This document shows, piece after piece, positions 48,293 through 64,000 of a stretch of 64,000 bases of DNA. This stretch comes from Patescibacteria group bacterium. Lineage in GTDB: Bacteria > Patescibacteriota > Minisyncoccia > Minisyncoccales > UBA5738. The translations under genes and the position numbers were made by a program. The DNA lies in assembly GCA_022710775.1 (NCBI GenBank), contig JAKLGH010000001.1, positions 69,824 through 133,823 on the forward strand. The letters run 5' to 3'. Under the pieces are notes generated by a model that saw only the letters and a program-made list of their open reading frames with translations, was not told the DNA's origin and ran no database searches. The first letter of the stretch is position 1, and the number at the start of each line of letters is the position of its first letter.

Positions 48293-48366
48293 TTTTCAAT
48301 CGCTGATTCTCTGCTTCCAAGCATTAATTGAAAATTAGAAATTGAAAATTGAAAATTTTTTATCGT

Positions 48367-54049: not shown

Positions 54050-54078
54050 TTGACAAAAACAGATGATGGCGATATATA
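54050..54078 (+). promoter_or_regulatory. candidate promoter TTGACA-N17-TATATA of the TetR-MFP-RND operon
   Basis: TTGACA at 54050..54055, 17-nt spacer, TATATA at 54073..54078. Confidence 0.55.
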
Positions 54079-54093
54079 GACTAAGTCAAACTG

Positions 54094-54109
54094 CCTACCA
54101 AACGGTAGG
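54094..54109. promoter_or_regulatory. inverted repeat CCTACC-AAAC-GGTAGG, candidate TetR operator
   Basis: A perfect 6-bp-arm palindrome ~16 nt downstream of the -10 hexamer and upstream of the TetR start. Confidence 0.4.
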
Positions 54110-54149
54110 TAATTTATATACCGTATGGCAAAATTACCCGTTAAATTCC

Positions 54150-54704
54150 ATGGATAACCGATGCTGCACCAAATCAAAGATCCTGGCCGCGGCCCGGAAA
54201 CTATTTTCAAAAAGAGGATATGCCCTCACTTCCCTGGATGAGATCGCAAAAAATGTTTCGATAGCCAAACCGTCCCTGTTTTACCACTTTAAGAACAAAG
54301 AGAATATTTATGCCAGCGTCGCGAAAAATTCGCTTGCCGTGATCATAAGCGACCTGGAAATTTATTTGGAAGAAAGCCGCCTCAAGCAAAGAAACCTTGA
54401 AAAAATCCTGGTTGAAGTGATCGAAAAACGCCTTAACGACGAAATCGTTATCAGGCTGGTCGATATGAAAATGATCGGCTTGGACCAGGAAGTCATTATT
54501 AGCATCCGCGAAGACCTGCAAAAAATACGCAATTTGGTCCGTAAGATCCTGGAAGTTTACGATATCAAAAATCCTAAACTGGCGGCGGAAGTCCTGATCA
54601 ATTCGGTTAATTGCTACGTATTGCATGCAAACGGCAATCTTTCGGAAATTCCGCCCAAAAAATACGGCGCGTACCTGGCTTCCCTTTTTTGCAAAAACGC
54701 TTAA
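54150..54704 (+). CDS. TetR/AcrR-family transcriptional regulator
   Basis: KILAAARKLFSKRGYALTSLDEIAKNVSIAKPSLFYHFKNKENIY is the TetR HTH signature. The ATG at 54150 is preferred because the track start (54063) lies inside the predicted promoter. Confidence 0.85.
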   Translation: MDNRCCTKSKILAAARKLFSKRGYALTSLDEIAKNVSIAKPSLFYHFKNKENIYASVAKNSLAVIISDLEIYLEESRLKQRNLEKILVEVIEKRLNDEIVIRLVDMKMIGLDQEVIISIREDLQKIRNLVRKILEVYDIKNPKLAAEVLINSVNCYVLHANGNLSEIPPKKYGAYLASLFCKNA

Positions 54705-54755
54705 AAAAATGGTAATAACGTTGATACCTAAGAAAATACTAAAAAATAAAATAAC

Positions 54756-56360
54756 ATGCCAACTCCCGATTTTCTCAAAAAAAACCCGATTCTGACTTTT
54801 TTTGTTTGCGCCGTAATAATCATTTTAATCCTGATCCAGCTGCCTAAGATCCGGCAAGCAGCCATTAACGGCGAAAATGCCAGAGACGCGGCGGCGGTGA
54901 GCCTGATTACGATCAGCGATTATAAAAAAACGTCTTCGATCACGCTGGACAGCGGCTTGGTCGAATCGATAAGCCAGGCCGATCTGCGAAGCCAATTCTC
55001 GGCTCCGGTCGAATCGGTCAACGTCGCCTTGGGCGACCGCGTAGCTAAGGGCCAGATTCTTGTCTCGCTTAAAAATGACGATCTGACTGCCCAGCTCGAC
55101 CAGGCTAAAGCCGGTTTGGTAAGTTCCCAAGCCTCTCTTCAAACCGCGGAAAACGGAGCCAGGCCCCAAGAATTGGAAATTTCGAAAACCCAAGCCAGGC
55201 AAGCGGCTCTGTCCCTGGAAGCGGCTCTCCGGGATTCTTACGCCAAAGCCGACGACAGCGTCAGAAACCATATTGATAAATTTTTTCTGAACCCCTCAAG
55301 CAGCTCGCCGGATTTCTTAATCATCATCAATTCCGAAGGGACCACGATCCGATATGGCGCGATCGGCAATGAACAAGCGGCTTTAGCTGAAGCCAAGCGG
55401 GTTGAAATGGAAAAACGCCTGAACAGCTGGCAACAAGACCTGGCGTCGATGGATGGATCCGCTGATCTTTCCAACCATATTTTAACCGCGGCTTCAAACC
55501 TCGAATTCTTGATCGATTTTTTAAATGATCTTTCTCCTTTAGCCAACGCCATTACCGCCAACAACGGCGCGGAAAAACAGGTTTTAGACGGATATAAAAG
55601 CGAACTTTCCGCGGCCCGATCAGCGGCCGCCGGATCATTAGCCTCGCTGCTCGGATCCGAAACAAGTTGGAAGCTGGCGGTCCAGTCGCTGGACCTGATG
55701 AAAGCCGGATCGACCAAAGAACAGCTGATACAAGCCAAAGCTATGGTGGCCCAAGCCGCGGCATCGGTCGAGGCTCTCGAAGCCCAAGTGGAAAAAACCG
55801 TCATCAGAACTCCAATCGCGGGCACTATCTCCTATTTGGATGCGCGCCTCGGAGAAGTGGCCGCCTTTGGACAGCTTGTCGCGTCTATTATCAATCCCGG
55901 CGCTTTGCAGATCAAAACCTATGCCAGCATCGAAGACCTGCCTAATATTGCTATTAATGACCGGGTTGAAATCGGAGACGGCCGGGCGGTCGGTTATGTT
56001 TACCGGATATCCCCGGCGATCGATCCGGCCTTGAAAAAAGCCGAAGCGATCGTCATCGTCGACAAAAACAGCGCTGATTCGCCCATCGTCGCCGGCCAAA
56101 CCGTGAATTTAAGCATCGAAAGCAAAAAAAGCGGATCCAAAACGCTTTATTTGCTGCCGATCCAAGCCGTTAAAACCAACGGGGCAAGCTACGTATACGC
56201 CGCCAGCGGCGAAAACACGGTCGTATCGATTCCGGTAACCGTGGGAAACCTGGTCGGCGAAACAATTGAAGTTTGGGGAGATTTTAACGCGGACCAAAAA
56301 ATTATTTCTTCGGTTATGGGCATCGCGCCGGGAAATAAAGTAATAATCAGCGAACAATAG
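54756..56360 (+). CDS. efflux RND periplasmic adaptor (membrane fusion protein, HlyD-like) with a long coiled-coil hairpin
   Basis: N-terminal TM, lipoyl-like KGQILVSLKNDDLTAQLDQAKAGL, a long Ala/Gln-rich coiled coil, then IRTPIAGTISYLDARLGEVA. Confidence 0.85.
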   Translation: MPTPDFLKKNPILTFFVCAVIIILILIQLPKIRQAAINGENARDAAAVSLITISDYKKTSSITLDSGLVESISQADLRSQFSAPVESVNVALGDRVAKGQILVSLKNDDLTAQLDQAKAGLVSSQASLQTAENGARPQELEISKTQARQAALSLEAALRDSYAKADDSVRNHIDKFFLNPSSSSPDFLIIINSEGTTIRYGAIGNEQAALAEAKRVEMEKRLNSWQQDLASMDGSADLSNHILTAASNLEFLIDFLNDLSPLANAITANNGAEKQVLDGYKSELSAARSAAAGSLASLLGSETSWKLAVQSLDLMKAGSTKEQLIQAKAMVAQAAASVEALEAQVEKTVIRTPIAGTISYLDARLGEVAAFGQLVASIINPGALQIKTYASIEDLPNIAINDRVEIGDGRAVGYVYRISPAIDPALKKAEAIVIVDKNSADSPIVAGQTVNLSIESKKSGSKTLYLLPIQAVKTNGASYVYAASGENTVVSIPVTVGNLVGETIEVWGDFNADQKIISSVMGIAPGNKVIISEQ

Positions 56361-56361
56361 C

Positions 56362-59300
56362 ATGTCAGGAAAATCATCATCCGATTACCAATACTTGAAC
56401 CGGCTGGAGTTTAAACCGGAGCTCAAAAAGACCTGGTTGAATTTTTTTGTCTCCCGCTTCCGCGTCGTCATTTTGCTCATTCTTTTGATCACGGCTTGGG
56501 GCCTGTATTCCTATTTCAAACTCCCCCGCGAATCCAATCCCGAAGTAAAAATCCCGATCGCGGTGGTTTCAACCGTTTTCCCGGGAGCGTCTCCAACCGA
56601 CATTGAGGAATTGATAACCAAAAAAGTCGAAACCAAGATCTCCGGGCTGAAAGGCGTAGACTCGATAACCTCCTATTCATCCAATTCCGTTTCGACGGTA
56701 GTCGTGGAATTCGACGCCAAAGAAGACCTTGAAGACTCCATCAGGAGCGTGCGCGACAGCGTTTCCACCTTGAAGAACAGCCTGCCGGAAAACGCCAATG
56801 ACCCGGTCGTAAACCAGATATCGCTTGACGATACGCCCATCCTGACAGTCGCCGTCAGCGGTCCCTACGACGGATTTGCCTTGCGCGACCATGCCGACAA
56901 CATCAAGGACGAGCTGGAAAAGATCAGCGGCGTAAGGGAAGTGATGATTTCGGGCGGAGACCAAAAAGAAATATCCGTTTCCTGCCTGCCGGAAAAACTC
57001 CGTTTTTACGGCGTTTCCGTCGACCAGGTAACTTCAAGCCTCGCTGCCGCCAACCTTTCGATGCCTTCCGGAAATTTTGACGGCGGCACCTACGTCTATT
57101 CGATCTCGGCCGACGCGAGGGTTTACGACGCCGAAGCTTTCGGCCAGATTCCGATAGCGGCAGGCGGCACCCTGGCTCCCGTCTACTTAAAAGACGTAGC
57201 CGAGGTTAAGGAAACCGCCATCAAGAAAACCGCCTATTCGCGGATCTCTTCGGCGGGCCAAGCGCCTTTGGATGCCGTTGAGATCAGTATCGTCAAAAGG
57301 GCGGGCGGAAATATCATCGAAACCGCGGATGCCGCGAAACTGGCTTTTGATTCCTACATCGCAAAAAATCCGGGATTAAGATACGACGTAACGCTTGACC
57401 AATCCGATTATATCCGGGAAGATTTCGACCAGTTGACGCACGATTTCATCCTTACTATTTTCCTGGTAATGGGCGTTCTGCTTTTGATGGTCGGATTCAA
57501 AGAAGCTTTTGTCGCCGGCTTGGCCATACCTTTGGTCTTTTTCGTCTCTTTCGGGGTAATGAGCCTTTCGGGTATTACCATGAACTTTCTTTCAACTTTC
57601 GCTTTACTGCTGTCGCTGGGCTTGATCGTCGATGACGCCATCGTTGTCGTTTCGGCAACCAAGATGTACATGCGCACCGGAAAATTCACGCCCGAAGAAG
57701 CGATTCTTTTGGTTTTAAACGATTTCAAGGTCGTACTTACCGCCACGACGCTGACCACGGTCTGGGCCTTTTTGCCTTTGCTTTTTTCATCCGGCATTAT
57801 GGGCATTTTTATCCGGTCGGTTCCAATCGTCCTCTCGGTTACCCTTATCTCTTCGCTGGCTATCGCGCTGATGGTCAACCATCCTTTAGCCGCTGTTCTT
57901 GAAAGAGTGCGCTTAACTCCCGTTTTTTTCTTTATTTACCTCTCTCTGGCGTTTTTGGCCGCCCTCTCGCTCCTGGCTCAAGGCGGCATCGTTTCAACTG
58001 TCATCGCCGCGGCGATCATCGTTGCCGTCGGCGCGCTGATATTCTGGTATGAACGCGGAGGAAAGAAACCGCTTTGGGAAAACCGCCGCCTGCTCTACCT
58101 TGAAGCGAAAAGCGACGAACTGATAAAGGCCAAGCTAAAGGCCCAATCCTTAAACGACGATAAAACCGATTTTAGCGCCAGATTGTCGCACGGCATCGCC
58201 AATATCAACGCTTTCCTGCCATTGTACGAGAAACATCTGGCCATGCTGATCGACGATAAAAAGAAAAGGAAATTTTTTTTGGCGGCGGTATTCGGCTTGT
58301 TCCTGGCGGCGGCGGCGCTGCCAATCCTTGGAATAGTTAAAACCGAGTTCTTTCCGGCCGACGATTTTAATTATCTTACCATTAATATTGAAGCCCCCAT
58401 CGGATACAAGCTGGAAAAGACCGGCGCAATCGTCTCTAAGGTCGAGGAAAAATTGCTGGCTTACAAGGAAATAAAGAATTTCTCGACCGTGGTCGGCGGA
58501 TCAGCCGCCACGGATACTTTTACTTCAGGATCCTCCTCATCCGCGGACACGGCCGGCATAACGATAAATCTTGTACCCAAAAGCGAACGCAAACTAAAAT
58601 CCTATGAACTCGGCGAATTGATGCGGAATGATTTCGCGGATATTAAGGATGCTAAAATCGTCGTTACCGAGCTTCAAGGCGGACCGCCAAGCGGTTCGGC
58701 TTTCGAAGCCGACATTATGGGAGACGATCTGGATGAACTGACCCGCATCGCCAACGACCTTAAACCCCGGCTGGAAAAGATCAGCGGCGTCATCAACGCC
58801 GACATTTCGTTAAAAGAAGCTCCCCCGGAATATACCTTTATCCTAAACCAGCAAAAACTGGCCGAGCACAGCCTGAATGCCGCCTATGTCGGCGCGGTTT
58901 TGCGCAGCGCTGTTTCGGGCACCGAAGCGACAACGGTATTCAGCAATAACAAGGAAATATCGGTGAATGTCCGTTTCGATCCCGGATCGATCCCGTCATT
59001 GAACGATATCCAGAACCTTCAGATCGTCAACCTCGCCAAGCAGCCGGTTTATCTGAAAGATGTGGCCGATATCAAACTGGTGCCCAGCGTCCGCACCATC
59101 GAACGAATCGATCAAAAAAGGACGGTCGTCCTTTCCTCCGACGTAGCCGCGACCGCCAATGCCAACCTGGTTTTATCCGAATTCCAAAGCATATTAAAAA
59201 ATGACTATAAACTGCCCCAGGGCTATGAAATATCTTACGGGGGGCAAAATGAGGAAAACGCCAATTCGGTCATGTCGATCTTACTGGCCATGATCGTAGC

Positions 59301-59751
59301 GTTCGTATTGATCATCACCACCCTGGTCATCCAGTTTAATTCGTTCATTAAAGCCCTGATCGTGCTGATCACCGTACCTTTGGCTTTGATCGGAACTTTC
59401 ATTGGAATGGCGCTCACCGGCATCACCTTAAGCTTCCCCGGGCTGATCGGAATCCTTGCCCTGTTCGGAATCGTCGTAAAGAACGCCATTATCTTAATCG
59501 ACAAGATCGGGCTTAATTTAAAAAGCGGCATTGCCTGGCGCGATTCGATCATCGACGCGGGAAAATCCCGGCTTGAAGCGATCTTTATCACTTCATTTTG
59601 CACGATATTAGGCATCGTTCCGATCACCTTATCGAGCAAAACCTGGGAAGGCTTGGGCGCGGCCATAATCTTTGGCCTCTCCATCTCCTCTTTCTTTACC
59701 CTGTTTGTCATCCCCGCTTTGTTTGCCCAATTCTTAAAAGAGGAAAAGTAG
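56362..59751 (+). CDS. RND-family efflux transporter permease (AcrB/AcrD/AcrF family)
   Basis: 1129 aa. LPRESNPEVKIPIAVVSTVFPGASPTDIEELITKKVE, with duplicated 6-TM bundles (..SLGLIVDDAIVVV.. and ..LFGIVVKNAIILID..). It starts 2 nt after the MFP stop. Confidence 0.95.
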   Translation: MSGKSSSDYQYLNRLEFKPELKKTWLNFFVSRFRVVILLILLITAWGLYSYFKLPRESNPEVKIPIAVVSTVFPGASPTDIEELITKKVETKISGLKGVDSITSYSSNSVSTVVVEFDAKEDLEDSIRSVRDSVSTLKNSLPENANDPVVNQISLDDTPILTVAVSGPYDGFALRDHADNIKDELEKISGVREVMISGGDQKEISVSCLPEKLRFYGVSVDQVTSSLAAANLSMPSGNFDGGTYVYSISADARVYDAEAFGQIPIAAGGTLAPVYLKDVAEVKETAIKKTAYSRISSAGQAPLDAVEISIVKRAGGNIIETADAAKLAFDSYIAKNPGLRYDVTLDQSDYIREDFDQLTHDFILTIFLVMGVLLLMVGFKEAFVAGLAIPLVFFVSFGVMSLSGITMNFLSTFALLLSLGLIVDDAIVVVSATKMYMRTGKFTPEEAILLVLNDFKVVLTATTLTTVWAFLPLLFSSGIMGIFIRSVPIVLSVTLISSLAIALMVNHPLAAVLERVRLTPVFFFIYLSLAFLAALSLLAQGGIVSTVIAAAIIVAVGALIFWYERGGKKPLWENRRLLYLEAKSDELIKAKLKAQSLNDDKTDFSARLSHGIANINAFLPLYEKHLAMLIDDKKKRKFFLAAVFGLFLAAAALPILGIVKTEFFPADDFNYLTINIEAPIGYKLEKTGAIVSKVEEKLLAYKEIKNFSTVVGGSAATDTFTSGSSSSADTAGITINLVPKSERKLKSYELGELMRNDFADIKDAKIVVTELQGGPPSGSAFEADIMGDDLDELTRIANDLKPRLEKISGVINADISLKEAPPEYTFILNQQKLAEHSLNAAYVGAVLRSAVSGTEATTVFSNNKEISVNVRFDPGSIPSLNDIQNLQIVNLAKQPVYLKDVADIKLVPSVRTIERIDQKRTVVLSSDVAATANANLVLSEFQSILKNDYKLPQGYEISYGGQNEENANSVMSILLAMIVAFVLIITTLVIQFNSFIKALIVLITVPLALIGTFIGMALTGITLSFPGLIGILALFGIVVKNAIILIDKIGLNLKSGIAWRDSIIDAGKSRLEAIFITSFCTILGIVPITLSSKTWEGLGAAIIFGLSISSFFTLFVIPALFAQFLKEEK

Positions 59752-59783
59752 CAAACTGGCTGTTGTTCCAGCCAAGGCAAAAC

Positions 59784-59809
59784 CGCCCTTATCGGGCGGT
59801 TTTGTTTTC
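59784..59809. terminator. bidirectional rho-independent terminator between the RND operon and the distal end of the CRISPR array
   Basis: CCGCCC-TTATC-GGGCGG, preceded by AAAA and followed by TTTTGTTTT. Confidence 0.7.
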
Positions 59810-59880
59810 CAGAGACCGGGACTCTGCTGGCTTCTGGTCTCTGTTGGCTTTTTGGGTGGCGTAATTTTGGAGCAGAATAA

Positions 59881-60721
59881 ATCTACAAAAGTAGAAATTG
59901 AATATGCCTATTAGAGTTGTTAAGTGATAGGTATAACAAGTAATCTACAAAAGTAGAAATTGAATATGCCTATTAGAGAAAGAAGAACTAAAAAGATTAC
60001 AATATCTACAAAAGTAGAAATTGAATATGCCTATTAGAGTTTTAGTGCTATTGATGGTTTTTCTATCTACAAAAGTAGAAATTGAATATGCCTATTAGAG
60101 TTTTTAATTCTTTTAAGATGTCTTCATCTACAAAAGTAGAAATTGAATATGCCTATTAGAGAACAGACAAATCGCCAATATTATCTTATCTACAAAAGTA
60201 GAAATTGAATATGCCTATTAGAGTTTACCGGAATCAGGACCCCTCGTTTATCTACAAAAGTAGAAATTGAATATGCCTATTAGAGTGCCAAGAGTCCGGG
60301 CAATCATCTGATCTACAAAAGTAGAAATTGAATATGCCTATTAGAGTTAAAAATTTTTTGAAATATCAGTACAATCTACAAAAGTAGAAATTGAATATGC
60401 CTATTAGAGAAACTGGCGCTCGGAATTCTATGAGATCTACAAAAGTAGAAATTGAATATGCCTATTAGAGTCCCATAAAGGCAATCGGCTGTCGTATATC
60501 TACAAAAGTAGAAATTGAATATGCCTATTAGAGCTTTCGTTAGATGATCAATACTATCAATATCTACAAAAGTAGAAATTGAATATGCCTATTAGAGACC
60601 GCCTTGTCATAAAAACATACGTTATCTACAAAAGTAGAAATTGAATATGCCTATTAGAGTCGCCTACTTGCTATGGCTGATATACATCTACAAAAGTAGA
60701 AATTGAATATGCCTATTAGAG
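59881..60721 (-). CRISPR. CRISPR array: 14 identical 36-nt repeats and 13 spacers of 25-28 nt, Cas12a-type repeat
   Basis: Plus-strand repeat is ATCTACAAAAGTAGAAATTGAATATGCCTATTAGAG. Repeat starts are 59881, 59943, 60004, 60065, 60126, 60188, 60250, 60311, 60374, 60435, 60498, 60562, 60624, 60686. The reverse complement CTCTAATAGGCATATTCAATTTCTACTTTTGTAGAT ends in the Cas12a handle, so transcription runs on the minus strand, as for the cas genes. Confidence 0.97.
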
Positions 60722-60852
60722 AGCTGATCGGATCGTAATTAGCTTTAAAGATGCGATTATTGAATAAAATTCAGATAACGACTTTAAGCTAATTACGACC
60801 GAAAAAAGCATAAAGACTAAGGTTTTTTCTAATAGATACATGGCAATTTCCA
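60722..60852 (-). promoter_or_regulatory. CRISPR leader (between cas2 and the first repeat), AT-rich with a long inverted repeat
   Basis: A 131-nt AT-rich region adjacent to the cas2-proximal repeat. The inverted repeat TCGTAATTAGCTTTAAAG (60733..60750) / ACTTTAAGCTAATTACGA (60781..60798) flanks a 30-nt AT-rich loop. Confidence 0.5.
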
Positions 60853-61164
60853 CTAATTTGCTACTTTTTGATTTGGTATTAAATTGCCAAAGAACAGAAA
60901 GTCTTTCTCTTCATTTTCCGCATATCCGTACCGCTTTAATTTTCCCTTACAACCTTCGCATACGGTGATTATAATAATGCTGTCTCTTTTTGTAAAGATT
61001 GGCTTGTATTTCATATCTATCTCTTTCAGCAAATTTGCCAAAAACCGGGAACTGTTTTTAACTTCATAAACCGAATATTGCAACCGCCGTCCGTATTTTT
61101 TTAAAAACTTGGAAAATTTGCTTCTGGTTTTATTATCTTCAAAATCATAAGAAACTATAAACAT
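60853..61164 (-). CDS. cas2: CRISPR-associated endoribonuclease Cas2
   Basis: MFIVSYDFEDNKTRSKFSKFLKKYGRRLQYSVYEV is the Cas2 N-terminal beta-alpha motif with the conserved Asp. 103 aa, adjacent to cas1 and the array. Confidence 0.9.
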   Translation of the reverse strand: MFIVSYDFEDNKTRSKFSKFLKKYGRRLQYSVYEVKNSSRFLANLLKEIDMKYKPIFTKRDSIIIITVCEGCKGKLKRYGYAENEEKDFLFFGNLIPNQKVAN

Positions 61165-61196
61165 TTTAAGTTAATCCGCCGCAGACCGAACATTAT

Positions 61197-62171
61197 TTAA
61201 CCGTGGCTCGCTTGTTTTTTTTGCTTCAAAGAAAACTTCGGAAAATCCGAACCGTTCATCACGCAATAATAAAAATCCCGAACATAACAATAAATTTCTT
61301 CCCGATGATCCAAAATCGCCTGCGCAAATATCGCCAGATACTTTTCCTGGCGATCCCAGCCTAATTCCCGCTTTCCGGCTCTTTCCTTAAAATCATCTAC
61401 ATCAATTTGCCTAAGATGATAGGCCTTAACAATCGCTTTATCGATAATACAGCGAAAAGGCTCAATCAAATCGCAAACAAGCGATTTTCTCTGAAAAAAC
61501 AGCCGGTGATAAAACCCTTTATAAGAATCGAAGCCGTATATACCAACCATGCCGTCGATAAAATTGAATAACATGGTATACCCGATATCGAGCAAAACAT
61601 TGCTTACATCGGTTTTGGCTCGCGGCAAGCGGCGTTTCCACCCCATTTCTGAAAAATATTCCTGAAAGAAAAACTTGCTTGCTGACCCTTCAAGTCCCAG
61701 CAAATCATTGCCATTTTTTGCTTCCGCCACTTTTAATTTAATATCCTTAAGGCTTGCCGGGTTTTTGGTCATCTTTTGCTCCAACAGCAATCCAACCTGA
61801 TTATCAATTTTATTCGAAACAAGCTTCTTGGCCATTTCAAGCTCAGCTGCATTATCCCAAGAATATTGCTTTTCCCGCAATAAATAATTACCTTCGGCCG
61901 TCGAGATTATCCGGGCGTAGGCTAAAAAATTTCGGTTGCATAAAAATACGGAAACACCGCATTTTTTGCAATTTCTAACCATCACGCTGGTAAGCGAACA
62001 TTCTCCAATGATAAATACACAAAAAACCTTGTGGCAAGATATCTGGTTCTCGATCTTACCGTTCTTGCATAAACAAATATTGTCATTGGCAATCTTAATT
62101 TTGTCCACATCGATATTCCCGGCGCTCACGAACAATATTTGTTTTTCCCGAAAATCAGGCAGGCTCAGCAT
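61197..62171 (-). CDS. cas1: CRISPR-associated integrase Cas1
   Basis: LGLEGSASKFFFQEYF.., NVLLDIGYTMLFNFI.., GFYHRLFFQRKSLVCDLIEPFRCIID are Cas1 catalytic-domain motifs (E, H, D/E). Confidence 0.93.
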   Translation of the reverse strand: MLSLPDFREKQILFVSAGNIDVDKIKIANDNICLCKNGKIENQISCHKVFCVFIIGECSLTSVMVRNCKKCGVSVFLCNRNFLAYARIISTAEGNYLLREKQYSWDNAAELEMAKKLVSNKIDNQVGLLLEQKMTKNPASLKDIKLKVAEAKNGNDLLGLEGSASKFFFQEYFSEMGWKRRLPRAKTDVSNVLLDIGYTMLFNFIDGMVGIYGFDSYKGFYHRLFFQRKSLVCDLIEPFRCIIDKAIVKAYHLRQIDVDDFKERAGKRELGWDRQEKYLAIFAQAILDHREEIYCYVRDFYYCVMNGSDFPKFSLKQKKQASHG

Positions 62172-62175
62172 ATAA

Positions 62176-62715
62176 TTAGTGGCAAAGCGGCTGGTAAACG
62201 CATTGCAAGCATTTATTTTCGTTAACCGGCCGCGGAATTTCGGGCCGATATTTTTTCATTTTTTCGACAAGCGACAAAAAATGGTTCATTTCTTCCTCAT
62301 CGGGGATAGCTATCTTATAACGTTTATTGTCGGCCAATGATTGAATCGCCAGTGATTTAACCTCGTAACCCATTTCCCGCAAGCAAACCATTTGCGCGTA
62401 AAGCTGGTATTTATAACCGTCAAATATCGTTTTCACTTTGTACTTCCGTTCAACAAGCAACCCGCTTTTAATATCGAAAGTATCAATCTTTCCCATAATC
62501 CCCAGCCGTTCCGAGCAAACTTCCAATCCCTGCAAAACATTCTTAGCGGTCGTATAGGTTCTGTTGTCCACCGCTTCATGCGCAAGCCGTCCAACCGTCT
62601 GCGCCGTCCGATGATAGGTTTTAACGCTAAAATCATCATATACCGAGTGCAAATAGATCGAATAAGGGCAAAAAATAAAATCATTTATCTTGGAAATCTG
62701 TATATAGTCTTCCAT
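62176..62715 (-). CDS. cas4: CRISPR-associated exonuclease Cas4 (RecB-like, 4-Cys)
   Basis: The N-terminal Cys is in INDFIFCPYSIYLH. The nuclease core reads GKIDTFD..LVERKYK. The C-terminal cluster is CLQCVYQPLC. Its ATG overlaps the effector stop (TAATG at 62713..62717). Confidence 0.9.
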   Translation of the reverse strand: MEDYIQISKINDFIFCPYSIYLHSVYDDFSVKTYHRTAQTVGRLAHEAVDNRTYTTAKNVLQGLEVCSERLGIMGKIDTFDIKSGLLVERKYKVKTIFDGYKYQLYAQMVCLREMGYEVKSLAIQSLADNKRYKIAIPDEEEMNHFLSLVEKMKKYRPEIPRPVNENKCLQCVYQPLCH

Positions 62716-64000
62716 TAAACAGTTTTCTGCCTTATTTTAAGATTGTTCGCCATATAATCTACCCAATTTTTTTCTCCCGCAAGCCAAGCATCCCACTCTT
62801 CATTTCGCACAAACAAATCCGCGTTTCTTTTAATATGTTCGCTCATAATAATTCCCTTGCGGGCAATATTATACGCGCCGTTAGCATCGCCATTTTGCGG
62901 GAGTTTTGCACCATTTTTGATCTTACGAGAGTCAAAAAAGTCACCACTCGCACCCCTAACGGGAGAAAGAATAAAGTCGTTGTCTTTTTCATCTTCTCCG
63001 GTGTTGCGGATCTGTTGAATAACATCAATAACAAATCTTAAGCTTTCCCAAGCTGTTCGTTCTTTGTCGAATTTATTCAATTCTTTACCATCTTTAATCT
63101 GCTCTTTGAAAGATTTATTTTTATCAAATCCCTTAAAAATATTTTCTAAATTTTTAACGATATCAATTCTATCCGGGCTCCAATGCTTCTTACCCTCTTT
63201 TTCTGAAAATTTATCGCGATATCTATCCAATTCCGCACCATTTTTTCCGGAATATAAAATCCATTCTTTACCAATATTCGCGTCTTTATATTTGAAATAA
63301 TAATCCTTACCATCAAAACCAAAATCACTGAATAAATCAAAAATTTGCTCTTTAATTTCTGACCCCTTTTTAATAGATATTGTTTTGTGCCAGCCCGTAA
63401 TTGGATCAGTGGCTGAGGTAAAGCTTGGATTAGTATAAAACATAATCCCAAATTGCTTGCCTTTAATATCGTTAAAATCATGAACTGGCGGAGTAAACTG
63501 CAAGGCATTATCAACCGAAGCCATTTCCCCATCTTTAGCGCTTTTATCAACAAGAAAATTCAATTTTTTAGCCAAGGCAAGTTCAAGTTTTTGGTAAACC
63601 TGTTTTTCAATTTTCTGCCGCCCGCGCTTGAAGCCGATATTTAAATCCTCAAGAATAATAAGCGCGGGAGTTTCGCGAAAACCTTTTTTCCTGTCGCCCT
63701 CGTTGTAAACCGCCAAATCGACAATTTTTCTTACAACTTGCGAAATATATCCATCTTTTAAATCTTTTATATTGCCGATTGTCGTCCAATTTTTGCGCGC
63801 CAAGTCGCGATCGCCTTGTTTTATGTCCAACTTTTCCCAATAATTTTGCTTATTTATTATATTAAAACTACCCTGCTCTAAAATTTCTCCCCTTTGATTT
63901 ACAAGAGAATAGTAAGCAAGGTTTTTTTCGCCTCTGTCAATTCCGAGAAATAGCTGGTTTTTGGTTTCTACAATAACTTGATTCACTAAATCATTAATTC
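62715..64000 (-). CDS. cas12a: Cas12a (Cpf1)-like type V-A effector, C-terminal ~428 codons (5' part lies beyond the right edge of the window)
   Basis: The frame stays open to position 64000; the track M at 63986 is an internal GTG. RuvC-I is [17 protein letters not shown]. RuvC-II is [28 protein letters not shown]. The Nuc-region reads [17 protein letters not shown]. RuvC-III is [17 protein letters not shown]. It is collinear with FnCas12a (SIDRGERHLAYYTL / [26 protein letters not shown] / LISPVADVNGNFFDSR / QDADANGAYHIGLKG). No HNH domain lies between RuvC-II and RuvC-III. Confidence 0.93.
   Translation of the reverse strand, partial: [427 protein letters not shown]

What the first reader, a model, noticed from the sequence alone, without database searches (positions are those of the whole stretch)
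59881..60721. The repeat encodes the Cas12a 5'-handle hairpin, and no anti-repeat (tracrRNA) is visible nearby
In the transcribed (minus) orientation each repeat reads CUCUAAUAGGCAUAUUC-AAUUUCUACUUUUGUAGAU. The last 19 nt form the UCUAC-UUUU-GUAGA stem-loop preceded by AAUU. This matches the established Cas12a handle consensus AAUUUCUACU(N)UUGUAGAU. All 14 repeats are identical, including the leader-distal one, so there is no degenerate terminal repeat. By eye I found nothing longer than 8 nt complementary to the repeat in the 59752..62200 flanks. That fits a tracrRNA-less system. Spacer lengths are 26,25,25,25,26,26,25,27,25,27,28,26,26 nt (left to right), at the short end for this family.
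Basis: partly seen in the sequence, partly recalled or inferred. Interest (0 to 1): 0.55.

Follow-up and report, generated by a model that had tools for sequence, protein, structure and literature searches.

The report
Cas12a array with leader anti-repeat
This is a genuine Cas12a (type V-A) CRISPR array with the textbook repeat hairpin, but contrary to "no anti-repeat nearby" its leader carries a conserved, co-evolving imperfect complement of the repeat, a feature shared by Cas12a loci of candidate-phyla-radiation bacteria and not found described for this CRISPR type in the papers I could search.

Summary
There are 14 identical 36-nt repeats at 59881-60721. Read on the minus strand, each ends in AAUUUCUACUUUUGUAGAU. 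Spacers are 25-28 nt. cas2, cas1, cas4 and the 3' end of cas12a lie directly upstream on the same strand. No exact complement of the repeat of 12 nt or more exists in the window.

The inference "no anti-repeat" is only partly right. A gapped search that allows G-U pairs puts the best complement of the repeat in 72 kb inside the leader (60828-60861), 106 nt upstream of repeat 1. Leader plus repeat 1 fold at -53.6 kcal/mol (z = -6.8), and this fold masks the handle.

The same element sits 103-147 nt upstream of repeat 1 in about 27 related arrays. A covariance model scores strongly in 36 of 84 sequences searched. The element co-varies with each locus's own repeat and shows sense-strand G-U pairs, which points to RNA-level selection.

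It occurs only with a Cas12a clade, mostly from candidate phyla radiation bacteria. In that clade the WED loop lacks the catalytic His of the pre-crRNA RNase site, and in this protein the catalytic Lys position is Glu.

Most likely this is a cis leader-repeat duplex. A tracrRNA-like role in trans is not excluded. In this strain cas12a carries a frameshift just outside the window. A spacer length of 25-28 nt is ordinary for the family.

The parts
59881..60721 (-). CRISPR array: 14 identical 36-nt repeats and 13 spacers of 25-28 nt
   Evidence: The array is identical in three other public assemblies that reach it.
60686..60721 (-). Repeat 1, the leader-proximal repeat and predicted pairing partner of the leader anti-repeat
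60722..60865 (-). Structured leader. The covariance-model hit spans 60686-60865 and includes repeat 1.
   Evidence: Covariance model R1: 136.4 bits, E = 7e-27, the only strong hit in the window. Rfam has no match in 58000-64000.
60828..60861 (-). Imperfect anti-repeat, 5'-GCAAAUUAGUGGAAAUUGCCAUGUAUCUAUUAGA-3'. It overlaps the cas2 stop codon in this strain.
   Evidence: Best complement of the repeat in 72 kb on both strands. Duplex -26.5 kcal/mol. Conserved and co-varying in relatives.
60810..60827 (-). Conserved unpaired leader box AAAAACCUUAGUCUUUAU (family consensus AAACCUYRGUCUUUAU)
   Evidence: Alignment A3; coordinates.
60736..60795 (-). Long inner leader hairpin: three stacked stems with conserved loop motifs AAGUCGU and AUCGCAUCUUU (family consensus AUUUGCAUCUUU)
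   Evidence: RNAalifold: 17 of 23 predicted pairs (18 in this hairpin, 5 in the repeat-1 handle) have compensatory changes. The three stems are 81-92% paired. Coordinates.
60968..60996 (-). Sigma-70-like promoter match TTTACA-17-TATAAT (11 of 12) inside cas2, upstream of the anti-repeat. A candidate only.
   Evidence: The same match is found in L010, and similar matches recur upstream of the element in relatives. Function not shown.
60853..61164 (-). cas2 (103 aa, 11 aa longer than in the closest relatives)
   Evidence: TIGR01573 and PF09827; comparison with relatives.
61197..62171 (-). cas1, type V kind
   Evidence: TIGR04329: 309.8 bits, cut-off 300.
62176..62715 (-). cas4, type V kind
   Evidence: TIGR04328: 227.5 bits, cut-off 70.
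62715..64000 (-). 3' part of cas12a (last 427 codons, RuvC and Nuc domains). The gene runs off the window end.
   Evidence: TIGR04330: 288 bits on the fragment; PF18516 and PF18510. The RuvC motifs IDRGE, E117 and DANGA sit in invariant alignment columns.
59781..59806 (.). G+C-rich hairpin with U-tracts on both strands. Likely a shared terminator of the array transcript and the convergent RND permease gene.
   Evidence: Sequence and fold. Inferred.
59665..59832 (.). One copy of a 168-nt direct repeat (94% identical). The two copies bracket the whole cas12a-to-array cassette. The other copy lies beyond the window end.
   Evidence: L001 4995-5162 and 12340-12507, 7345 bp apart.

Best explanation
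This is the CRISPR array of a type V-A (Cas12a) locus in a Candidatus Paceibacterota genome. It is transcribed on the minus strand from the cas2 side, and each repeat supplies the canonical 19-nt 5' handle to the spacer that follows it. There is no separate tracrRNA gene.

The roughly 145-nt leader is a conserved structured RNA. Its 5' segment (60828-60861) is an imperfect anti-repeat. In the pre-crRNA this segment most likely pairs in cis with almost all of repeat 1, over a long inner hairpin, so that the repeat-1 handle is held in a leader-repeat duplex instead of its own stem-loop. This architecture is specific to a Cas12a clade, mostly from candidate phyla radiation bacteria, whose WED domain lacks the canonical RNase His.

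Shown: the sequence elements, their conservation, their covariation with the repeat, the bias towards the sense strand, and the predicted thermodynamic dominance of the duplex.

Inferred: that the element is transcribed with the array, that the duplex forms in vivo, and what it does. The probable role is control or initiation of production of the first (newest) crRNA, perhaps through a host double-strand RNase.

In this strain cas12a itself is interrupted by a frameshift, so the system may be silent or weakly expressed.
For: Locus identity:
- Cas12a, type V Cas4, type V Cas1 and Cas2 all match.
- The frameshift-corrected 1316-aa Cas12a matches FnCas12a structures at E = 1e-135.
- All 56 related arrays share UCUAC-N4-5-GUAGAU, and 16 have the identical 19-nt handle.

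Anti-repeat in the window:
- The best complement of the repeat in 72 kb on both strands lies in the leader (score 36; shuffled-repeat maxima 30.5 +/- 2.5, 7 of 300 reach it).
- Duplex -26.5 kcal/mol against -9.5 +/- 2.9.
- Leader plus repeat 1 fold at -53.6 against -28.1 +/- 3.75 kcal/mol, z = -6.8.

Conservation:
- Present in relatives with 65-81% identical Cas12a.
- 26 of 59 arrays score z > 3 against shuffled repeats. The element ends 103-147 nt upstream of repeat 1 in all but three outliers (L062, L076, L067, set aside later). The leader beats the trailer 39 to 6.
- The covariance model scores 61-168 bits in 36 of 84 sequences searched, nine of which were not used to build it.

Covariation:
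- 29-pair helix, 83.9% of cells paired, 17 pairs with changes on both sides.
- Over the whole structure, 85.3% paired against 37-49% in slid controls, and 0 of 500 shuffles reach the observed values.
- The locus's own repeat is the best partner in 13 of 25 loci; mean rank 3.2 against 13 expected, p < 5e-5.

RNA level, sense strand:
- Columns with only A-U or G-U pairs (14/13 and 16/11, none unpaired).
- A>G and C>T changes number 60, against 30 for G>A and T>C.
- The sense duplex is more stable than the antisense one in 20 of 27 loci, p = 5e-4.

Cis masking:
- Mean probability that repeat-1 bases pair with the leader is 0.66 (0.78 for this locus) against 0.23 with a shuffled leader. It is 0.21 in canonical loci.

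Clade link:
- Loci with the element: 20 have the short, His-less WED loop and 2 the canonical loop. Loci without it: 21 canonical and 3 short. Fisher p = 1e-7.
Against: - No expression data. The transcription start is unknown. Promoter-like matches lie upstream of the element but inside cas2, and are consensus matches only.
- In a repeat-then-guide system the first repeat is needed for the newest spacer. Masking it therefore has no obvious benefit under the published 'extraneous crRNA' logic (PMC13187072).
- Pairing is imperfect. The position opposite the C of UCUAC is unpaired in 14 of 27 loci. In 5-6 loci that have the element, the repeat's own hairpin is still predicted to win.
- G>A changes, which break pairs, are not clearly depleted per site.
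- Loci are phylogenetically related, so the p-values overstate independence. The link to the WED loop amounts to one clade.
- The covariance model and the pair structure were derived from these same sequences.
Confidence: 0.55

Rival explanations
1. The leader acts as a tracrRNA-like maturation factor in trans. A leader-derived RNA, or the 3' UTR of the cas operon, carries the anti-repeat and pairs with every repeat. A host double-strand RNase such as RNase III then cuts the duplexes. This would replace the pre-crRNA RNase activity that this Cas12a clade appears to have lost. Cas12a would afterwards bind the refolded handle.
For: - The anti-repeat covers about 30 nt of the 36-nt repeat and is as imperfect as known tracrRNA anti-repeats.
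- It co-varies with the repeat.
- It occurs almost only in loci whose Cas12a lacks the His-bearing loop. In this protein the FnCas12a K869 position is Glu, and that position varies across the clade (residue roles from PMC11127173).
- Most loci show a 1-nt bulge opposite the junction between the handle and the 5' part of the repeat, where I recall the canonical cleavage site to be.
Against: - One anti-repeat per transcript must serve 14 or more repeats.
- No consistent terminator or own promoter defines a separate small RNA.
- The duplex destroys the handle hairpin that Cas12a needs, so the anti-repeat RNA could not be part of the effector complex.
- Lack of the His does not prove lack of RNase activity.
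- All studied Cas12a work without tracrRNA (PMC6546382, PMC10120712).
- The correlation is confounded by clade.
Confidence: 0.18
2. The element is a DNA-level signal. An inverted, degenerate copy of the repeat about 110 bp upstream, together with the conserved boxes, would be recognised by the Cas1-Cas2(-Cas4) integrase. It would help to fold the leader and direct new spacers to repeat 1, as upstream leader motifs do in types I-E and I-F.
For: - Fixed distance from repeat 1 (103-147 nt).
- Conserved unpaired boxes: AAACCTYRGTCTTTAT, AAGTCGT and ATTTGCATCTTT.
- An integrase that recognises the repeat would make an inverted copy co-vary with it.
- Leader inverted-repeat motifs bound by Cas proteins are documented for type I-F (abstract of bioRxiv 10.1101/2023.05.26.542337).
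Against: - The substitutions are strand-asymmetric and G-U compatible, with A/G-only columns opposite U.
- Sense-strand structures are more stable than antisense ones.
- The inner hairpin keeps complementarity while its sequence changes freely, which is typical of nucleic-acid structure rather than a protein site.
Confidence: 0.12
3. This is an ordinary tracrRNA-less V-A array. The leader element would be a decayed, functionless inverted repeat copy that persists because leaders of related arrays are similar.
For: - Close relatives have 87% identical leaders overall.
- In the window alone the complementarity score is only modestly above the shuffled maxima (7 of 300).
Against: - The element persists across orders of candidate phyla radiation bacteria whose repeats differ in their 5' halves, and it changes along with them.
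- Slid-partner controls, which keep relatedness, give 37-49% pairing against 85% observed.
- A functionless relic would not keep complementarity.
Confidence: 0.07
4. Independently of how the leader works, the locus in this strain is a recently inactivated or phase-variable system. cas12a is split by a 1-nt deletion in an A-run, and the array is static.
For: - In L001 cas12a reads as two ORFs, of 274 aa and 1004 aa. Inserting one A into the A7 run restores a 1316-aa protein.
- The sequence is the same in four assemblies from different sources.
- The closest intact relatives are 77-81% identical and full length. No intact 100%-identical protein is in the database.
- The arrays are identical in all assemblies that reach them.
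Against: - There is only one lesion. The RuvC residues, the adaptation genes and all 14 repeats are intact.
- A -1 slip on the A-run would give exactly the conserved protein sequence, so some full-length protein may be made.
Confidence: 0.5

Closest known systems
Canonical type V-A CRISPR-Cas (FnCas12a, AsCas12a, LbCas12a loci)
   Same: - Gene order cas12a-cas4-cas1-cas2-array.
- 36-nt repeats with the 3' handle AAUUUCUACU(N)UUGUAGAU.
- Spacers of about 25-30 nt.
- RuvC and Nuc domains present.
- No separate tracrRNA gene.

   Different: - The leader contains a conserved anti-repeat and a long covarying hairpin. Canonical loci show no leader-repeat pairing (probability 0.21, equal to the shuffled control).
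- The WED loop is 27-34 aa in most of the clade and lacks the catalytic His, against 43-48 aa with an 'H-x-A-N...NKN' motif in most canonical loci. In this protein the K869 position is Glu.
Leader-repeat hairpins of type II-A (Liao et al. 2022) and type VI-B and related systems (Migur et al. 2026, PMC13187072)
   Same: - A leader RNA segment complementary to the first repeat.
- It is predicted to out-compete the repeat's functional fold.
- It is conserved across a clade.
   Different: - Those systems have the guide-then-repeat layout, so the first repeat is extraneous and masking it is beneficial.
- Here the layout is repeat-then-guide, and the first repeat belongs to the newest spacer.
- The paper reports no such hairpin in VI-A, which also has the repeat-then-guide layout, and says that V-A deals with the extraneous (last) repeat by mutating it.
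- Here the last repeat is intact.
tracrRNA of type II and of types V-B/E/F/G/K
   Same: An imperfect anti-repeat encoded between the cas genes and the array, which co-evolves with the repeat.
   Different: - No evidence of a separate transcript.
- It lies on the same strand, directly upstream of the array.
- Pairing would unfold the Cas12a handle rather than build the effector's RNA scaffold.
- Cas12a is known to act with crRNA alone (PMC6546382).
Standalone repeat-like units and CreR mini-arrays of V-A loci (Shmakov et al. 2023, PMC10120712; bioRxiv 10.1101/2023.03.10.532045)
   Same: A degenerate repeat-derived sequence outside the array in a V-A locus, conserved among relatives.
   Different: - Those units lie mostly upstream of cas12a and occur in the Francisella, Moraxella, Ruminococcus and Eubacteriales clades. 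At least CreR is crRNA-like, with an intact handle.
- Here the copy is inverted, lies in the leader, and its reverse complement has lost the hairpin.
- No repeat-like unit is found upstream of cas12a.

Membership tests
Type V-A CRISPR-Cas (Cas12a) | Effector with the Cas12a-type RuvC and Nuc domains | tested here: met
   TIGR04330 gives 288 bits on the 427-aa fragment in the window (cut-off 300 for a full protein). PF18516 and PF18510 match. The corrected full-length protein matches FnCas12a at E = 1e-135. The RuvC motifs sit in invariant alignment columns.
Type V-A CRISPR-Cas (Cas12a) | Adaptation module cas4-cas1-cas2 of the type V kind next to the array | tested here: met
   TIGR04328: 227.5 bits (cut-off 70). 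TIGR04329: 309.8 bits (cut-off 300). TIGR01573: 57 bits (cut-off 24.5).
Type V-A CRISPR-Cas (Cas12a) | Repeat of about 36 nt ending in the handle AAUUUCUACU(N)UUGUAGAU, on the same strand as the cas genes | tested here: met
   The 19-nt handle is identical in 16 of 56 related arrays, and all 56 share the stem.
Type V-A CRISPR-Cas (Cas12a) | WED-domain RNase site for self-processing of pre-crRNA (FnCas12a H843, K852, K869; PMC11127173) | tested here: not met
   By sequence alignment only. The loop is PALEGKNLKRKKWKNKEIIENFRFSKEK, with no His and with Glu at the K869 position. A Lys may align with K852. Activity was not tested.
Type V-A CRISPR-Cas (Cas12a) | No tracrRNA or anti-repeat in the locus | tested here: inconclusive
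   No separate candidate in 72 kb, but there is a conserved leader anti-repeat at 60828-60861. Expression is unknown.
Type V-A CRISPR-Cas (Cas12a) | Intact effector gene | tested here: not met
   A frameshift in an A7 run splits cas12a into ORFs of 274 and 1004 aa in all four assemblies. The site lies just outside the window.
Type V-A CRISPR-Cas (Cas12a) | T-rich 5' PAM next to protospacers | not testable with these tools
   No credible protospacer was found. The phage BLAST gave no hit with an E-value below 0.02. Two spacers had no exact match in the viral contig collection.
tracrRNA-dependent class 2 systems | Anti-repeat complementary to the repeat, encoded in the locus and co-evolving with it | tested here: met
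tracrRNA-dependent class 2 systems | Anti-repeat expressed as a separate small RNA that is required for maturation or interference | not testable with these tools
   No RNA data. No consistent own promoter or terminator.
Leader-repeat hairpin systems (II-A, VI-B and related) | A leader RNA segment pairs with the first repeat and out-competes the repeat's own fold | tested here: met
   Prediction only. For the window locus, pairing probability 0.78, handle 5' arm paired with the leader 1.0, own hairpin 0.0. Clade mean 0.66 against 0.23 for the control. z = -6.8.
Leader-repeat hairpin systems (II-A, VI-B and related) | The first repeat is the extraneous one (guide-then-repeat crRNA layout) | tested here: not met
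   The handle is at the 3' end of the repeat, so the layout is repeat-then-guide and the extraneous repeat is the last one (PMC13187072).
Standalone repeat units / CreR of V-A loci | Repeat-like unit, crRNA-like with a handle in the case of CreR, usually upstream of cas12a | tested here: not met
   Nothing above the shuffle level upstream of cas12a (score 18 against 18.5 +/- 2.4). The leader element is inverted, and by my reading of the sequence its reverse complement lacks the stem.

The most novel reading that the evidence does not exclude
A whole clade of Cas12a, mostly from candidate phyla radiation bacteria and including this one, has lost the canonical WED RNase site. It would depend on a leader-encoded anti-repeat RNA, with a host double-strand RNase, to start or carry out crRNA maturation. 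That would be a tracrRNA-like maturation factor inside the supposedly tracrRNA-free type V-A. It could be an evolutionary intermediate between tracrRNA-dependent and self-processing type V systems.
Probability: 0.15. Interest if true: 0.9.

Novelty: new variant of a known kind. Interest (0 to 1): 0.62.

Why it matters
Type V-A is the textbook tracrRNA-free, self-processing CRISPR system. Leader-repeat hairpins are currently explained as a way to silence an extraneous first repeat in systems with the guide-then-repeat layout.

A conserved, co-varying leader anti-repeat in a Cas12a clade fits neither picture, because here the first repeat serves the newest spacer and the canonical RNase His is missing. 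Three consequences follow.
- It makes directly testable how crRNAs are made in Cas12a systems of candidate phyla radiation bacteria.
- It suggests that such orthologs may need their native leader, or another processing route, to work from arrays in heterologous hosts.
- It may bear on how tracrRNAs arise from inverted repeat copies.

For the finding as written, the practical message is narrower. Exact-match scanning for anti-repeats is not enough; gapped searches that allow G-U pairs, and comparison with relatives, are needed.

Tried and rejected
- Rfam scan of 58000-64000 at permissive E-values: no family matched.
- RNAduplex sliding scan with shuffles: timed out. Replaced by a Smith-Waterman search with G-U credit.
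- Spacer targets and PAM: BLAST of the whole array against 50,697 phage records gave no hit with an E-value below 0.02, some of them overlapping repeats. Exact scans of the viral contig collection for two spacers found nothing. Abandoned.
- Spacer turnover between assemblies, to show polarity: the arrays are identical, so this was uninformative.
- Separate small-RNA gene: promoter-like hexamers recur upstream of the element but inside cas2. A conserved CTTTGAMAAT box (resembling a -35 element) lies 10-15 nt upstream of the anti-repeat but has no -10 partner at a consistent spacing. The U-rich stretch after the inner hairpin is absent in the window's subclade. No transcript boundaries could be claimed.
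- Crossing the element's own small hairpin (GCAAAUU/AAAUUGC): by my reading of L006 it is not conserved. Rejected.
- Reading the element on the opposite strand as a degenerate crRNA or CreR: the handle stem is lost there, and G-U pairs would become C-A mismatches. Rejected.
- Degenerate terminal repeat as a clade marker: rare in both groups with my detector, so uninformative.
- Repeat-like unit upstream of cas12a: none.
Full report
**1. Observation**

The + strand of the window holds 14 exact copies of ATCTACAAAAGTAGAAATTGAATATGCCTATTAGAG, starting at 59881 and ending at 60721.

On the minus strand the repeat reads CUCUAAUAGGCAUAUUCAAUUUCUACUUUUGUAGAU. Its only predicted structure is the 5-bp stem UCUAC/GUAGA with loop UUUU, at -4.8 kcal/mol. 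This is marginal for one sequence (z = -1.6; 12 of 200 shuffles fold as well). However, all 56 related Cas12a arrays I collected share UCUAC-N4-5-GUAGAU, and 16 carry the identical 19-nt handle.

No exact complement of the repeat of 12 nt or more occurs anywhere in the window on either strand. The longest is 11 nt, at 48336, far from the locus. In the flanks there is a 10-mer at 61561 and a 9-mer at 61969, lengths that I estimate chance would give in 64 kb on both strands.

A spacer length of 25-28 nt is ordinary. Across 884 spacers the 5/25/50/75/95 percentiles are 25/26/27/28/30, and 20 of 56 arrays have a median of 26 nt or less.

**2. Context**

Directly upstream on the minus strand lie four genes:
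- cas2 (60853-61164; TIGR01573).
- cas1 (61197-62171; type V model TIGR04329, 309.8 bits against a cut-off of 300).
- cas4 (62176-62715; type V model TIGR04328, 227.5 bits against a cut-off of 70).
- The last 427 codons of cas12a (62715-64000; TIGR04330, 288 bits; Pfam RuvC_1 and NUC). This gene runs off the window.

On the other side a convergent RND efflux permease gene ends at 59751. A G+C-rich hairpin with U-tracts on both strands (about 59781-59806) probably terminates both transcripts (inferred).

The exact Cas1 protein is encoded on contigs from four public sources: ENA, JGI 3300009776, NCBI GCA_035914655.1 and Logan. The ENA contig (L001) is identical to the window over the 12,804 nt they share. 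Window position equals 72172 minus L001 position. The NCBI record names the organism Candidatus Paceibacterota (P0005).

**3. The effector gene**

On those contigs cas12a is called as two ORFs, of 274 aa (REC1 domain) and 1004 aa. The break is a frameshift in the run TATAAAAAAATAAAG. Adding one A gives an uninterrupted 1316-aa protein. That protein matches FnCas12a structures over its full length at E = 1e-135. The lesion is identical in all four assemblies.

The nearest full-length relatives are 77-81% identical. One of them reads TAT GAG AAA AAC AAA GAT at this site. The RuvC motifs (IDRGE, the Glu of EDLN, DANGA) fall in invariant alignment columns.

This strain therefore carries a very recent inactivation, or a slippage-dependent, weakly expressed cas12a. 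A -1 slip on the A-run would give exactly the conserved protein sequence; that is inference.

**4. The anti-repeat**

The query was the reverse complement of the repeat, with credit for G-U pairs. The target was the window plus the 8 kb beyond its end, on both strands, with the array masked.

The best hit in 72 kb lies in the leader, at 60828-60861 on the transcribed strand: 5'-GCAAAUUAGUGGAAAUUGCCAUGUAUCUAUUAGA-3'. It ends 106 nt upstream of repeat 1. Its score is 36. The best scores reached by shuffled repeats averaged 30.5 +/- 2.5, and 7 of 300 reached 36. That is modest on its own, but the location is striking.

Its longest exact runs are 8 nt, which is why it was invisible by eye. The duplex with the repeat is -26.5 kcal/mol, against -9.5 +/- 2.9 for shuffled versions (1 of 500 as low). 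Leader plus repeat 1 (196 nt) folds at -53.6 kcal/mol, against -28.1 +/- 3.75 for shuffles (z = -6.8). In that fold the anti-repeat pairs with repeat 1 across a long inner hairpin.

**5. Comparative evidence**

*Close relatives.* Loci encoding Cas12a 65-81% identical to this one (L005-L008) carry the same element.

*Wider family.* A scan of GTDB species representatives with a Cas12a alignment returned 80 loci. I detected arrays in about 60 of them. Of 59 arrays, 26 have a leader complement of their own repeat at z > 3 against shuffled repeats, and for 20 of these no shuffle out of 200 reached the observed score. Except in three outliers (L062, L076, L067), which I set aside in later analyses, the element ends 103-147 nt upstream of repeat 1. 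The leader beats the trailer 39 to 6.

The positive loci are mostly candidate phyla radiation bacteria: Woesebacteria, Gracilibacteria, Peribacteria, Peregrinibacteria GW2011_GWA2_33_10, Doudnabacteria, Moraniibacteriota, Yonathbacteria, Ryanbacteria and Parcubacteria. All but two have the UUUU loop in the handle; those two have UGUU.

*Leader architecture.* A MAFFT alignment of 27 leaders (A3) shows a shared layout, in this order:
- the anti-repeat;
- the box AAACCUYRGUCUUUAU;
- a three-part hairpin with loop motifs AAGUCGU and AUUUGCAUCUUU;
- a short linker;
- repeat 1.

*Covariation.* RNAalifold finds the inner hairpin, and 17 of the 23 pairs it predicts (18 in this hairpin, 5 in the repeat-1 handle) have compensatory changes.

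Counting pairs for the structure I specified gives:
- Whole structure: 85.3% of cells paired, against 70.1 +/- 0.8 in shuffles (0 of 500 as high) and 37-49% in slid controls, which keep relatedness.
- Anti-repeat:repeat helix: 29 pairs, 83.9% paired, 17 pairs with changes on both sides.

In a matching test, the 3' half of each element was scored against the variable 5' part of every locus's repeat. The locus's own repeat ranks first in 13 of 25 loci. The mean rank is 3.2 against 13 expected (permutation p < 5e-5).

*Family-wide detection.* A covariance model built from A3 finds one strong hit in the window (60686-60865, 136.4 bits). It gives strong hits (61-168 bits) in 36 of 84 sequences searched, nine of which were not used to build it. 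Everything else scores 49 bits or less. Rfam has nothing here.

**6. RNA or DNA, and which strand**

Three results point to RNA-level pairing in the transcript of the crRNA strand:
- Several columns opposite an invariant U of the repeat hold only A or G. The counts are 14 A-U to 13 G-U and 16 to 11, with no unpaired cell.
- With symmetric scoring, changes that stay compatible with sense-strand wobble (A>G, C>T) number 60. The antisense-compatible changes (G>A, T>C) number 30 (not normalised for base composition).
- The sense duplex is more stable than the antisense one in 20 of 27 loci (means -20.3 and -16.4 kcal/mol; Wilcoxon p = 5e-4). The inner hairpin is more stable in sense in 21 of 27 (p = 1e-3).

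The inner hairpin also keeps complementarity while its sequence changes freely, which is typical of nucleic-acid structure rather than of a protein site.

Partition-function folding of 180 nt of leader plus repeat 1 gives the following:
- Loci with the element: mean probability that a repeat-1 base pairs with the leader is 0.66, and 0.78 for this locus. With a shuffled leader it is 0.23. The handle's own hairpin forms at 0.20.
- Canonical loci: 0.21 (control 0.23), with the handle's own hairpin at 0.86.

**7. Link to the protein**

The segment between the conserved motifs ...AEIFYR and F-x-F-H-x-P is PALEGKNLKRKKWKNKEIIENFRFSKEK in this protein. Two loop types are seen across the loci:
- Most canonical loci: 43-48 aa with an 'H-x-A-N...NKN...YD(I/L)IKDKRF' motif. 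A smaller His-containing group has 38-41 aa with 'GHH'.
- Loci with the leader element: mostly 27-34 aa, without that His.

According to PMC11127173, H843 (acid), K852 and K869 (base) of FnCas12a form the pre-crRNA RNase site. The numbering of the IKDKRF motif is from my memory of FnCas12a. By alignment to AsCas12a and to the ReChb chain of PDB entry 8qwd, the His-bearing stretch is absent here. The K869/K860 position is Glu in this protein and varies (K, E, D, A, G) across the clade.

The association is strong. Among loci with the element at z > 3, 20 have the short loop and 2 the canonical one. Among the rest, 21 have a His-containing (canonical-type) loop and 3 were scored short. Fisher p = 1e-7. 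This probably reflects a single clade, so it is a correlation and not proof of a functional link. Lack of the His also does not prove lack of RNase activity.

**8. Comparison with what is known**

- The literature I could search states that V-A has no tracrRNA (PMC6546382, PMC10120712).
- Repeat-like units are known in V-A loci. They lie mostly upstream of cas12a and occur in the Francisella, Moraxella, Ruminococcus and Eubacteriales clades; at least CreR is crRNA-like with an intact handle (PMC10120712; bioRxiv 10.1101/2023.03.10.532045). This locus has none there.
[quoted passage not shown] There they silence the extraneous first repeat. The same paper uses VI-A, which has the repeat-then-guide layout, as a negative control, and says V-A handles its extraneous last repeat by mutation (PMC13187072).
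- Here the layout is repeat-then-guide, the first repeat serves the newest spacer, and the last repeat is intact. The published rationale therefore does not apply.
- A search for papers containing ecrRNA, V-A and leader found only that paper. I found no description of this element, but the library is incomplete.

**9. Mechanism**

*Best supported (about 0.55).* The element acts in cis as a leader-repeat duplex in the pre-crRNA. It masks, and so controls or primes, the first repeat, perhaps as a substrate for a host double-strand RNase. The sequences, the covariation, the strand bias and the predicted dominance of the duplex are shown. Transcription of the element, formation of the duplex in vivo and its effect are inferred.

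*Rivals.*
- A trans-acting, tracrRNA-like maturation factor that compensates for the lost RNase site (about 0.18).
- A DNA-level integrase signal (about 0.12).
- A functionless relic (about 0.07).

Independently of these, the frameshift makes it about even odds that the system is silent in this strain.

**10. Verdict**

The array and the handle are real and ordinary for type V-A. 'No tracrRNA gene' stands in the narrow sense. 'No anti-repeat' does not stand. The leader anti-repeat, and its restriction to a Cas12a clade without the canonical RNase His, is the interesting part. It rests on comparative computation only and needs RNA data.

Noticed in passing
L001 6267-6281 (window-equivalent about 65891-65905, just beyond the window end): cas12a is split into ORFs of 274 aa and 1004 aa by a frameshift in an A7 run. 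A run of eight A's, or a -1 slip, restores a 1316-aa protein. The lesion is identical in four independent assemblies, and no intact identical protein is in the 5.8-billion-protein database.
   Followed up: yes
window 59665-59832 and L001 4995-5162: 168-nt direct repeats, 94% identical and 7345 bp apart, bracket the whole cas12a-cas4-cas1-cas2-array cassette. The repeated sequence is the 3' end of the RND permease gene plus its terminator. This suggests that the CRISPR-Cas locus arrived as an insertion or by recombination at this site.
   Followed up: partly
window 60853-60885 (3' end of cas2): cas2 is 103 aa here, against 92 aa in the closest relatives. The usual stop has been lost, a hairpin of about 27 nt (GAGGTTATTAAACCTC in relatives) has been deleted from the leader, and the ORF now reads into the anti-repeat and stops inside it.
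   Followed up: partly
window about 60862-60885, and the corresponding positions in L009-L073: A conserved CTTTGAMAAT box, resembling a -35 element, lies 10-15 nt upstream of the anti-repeat in most loci of the clade. No -10 partner at a consistent spacing was found, and its role is unknown.
   Followed up: partly
L005 6287-8338: A relative with 81% identical Cas12a has exactly the same 36-nt repeat in a 33-repeat array. None of the spacers I inspected (the leader-proximal part of the array) matches a window spacer; the full set was not compared. Its spacers are 24-32 nt.
   Followed up: partly
L012 13286-13447 and 13927-15766; L084 13189-13412 and 14808-14969: Some loci of the clade have a short array (3-4 repeats) behind the structured leader, and a second array a few hundred nt (L012) to about 1.4 kb (L084) downstream that has no leader element of its own.
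   Followed up: no
window 54063-59751: A TetR-family regulator, a membrane-fusion protein (534 aa) and an AcrB-type RND permease (1129 aa) lie next to the CRISPR locus. This is an unexpected gene set for a contig labelled Paceibacterota and might merit a check of the binning.
   Followed up: no
window 48326-48357: A tandem AATTGAA repeat contains the longest exact match to the repeat outside the array (TAGAAATTGAA, 11 nt). I judged it a chance match in low-complexity sequence.
   Followed up: partly
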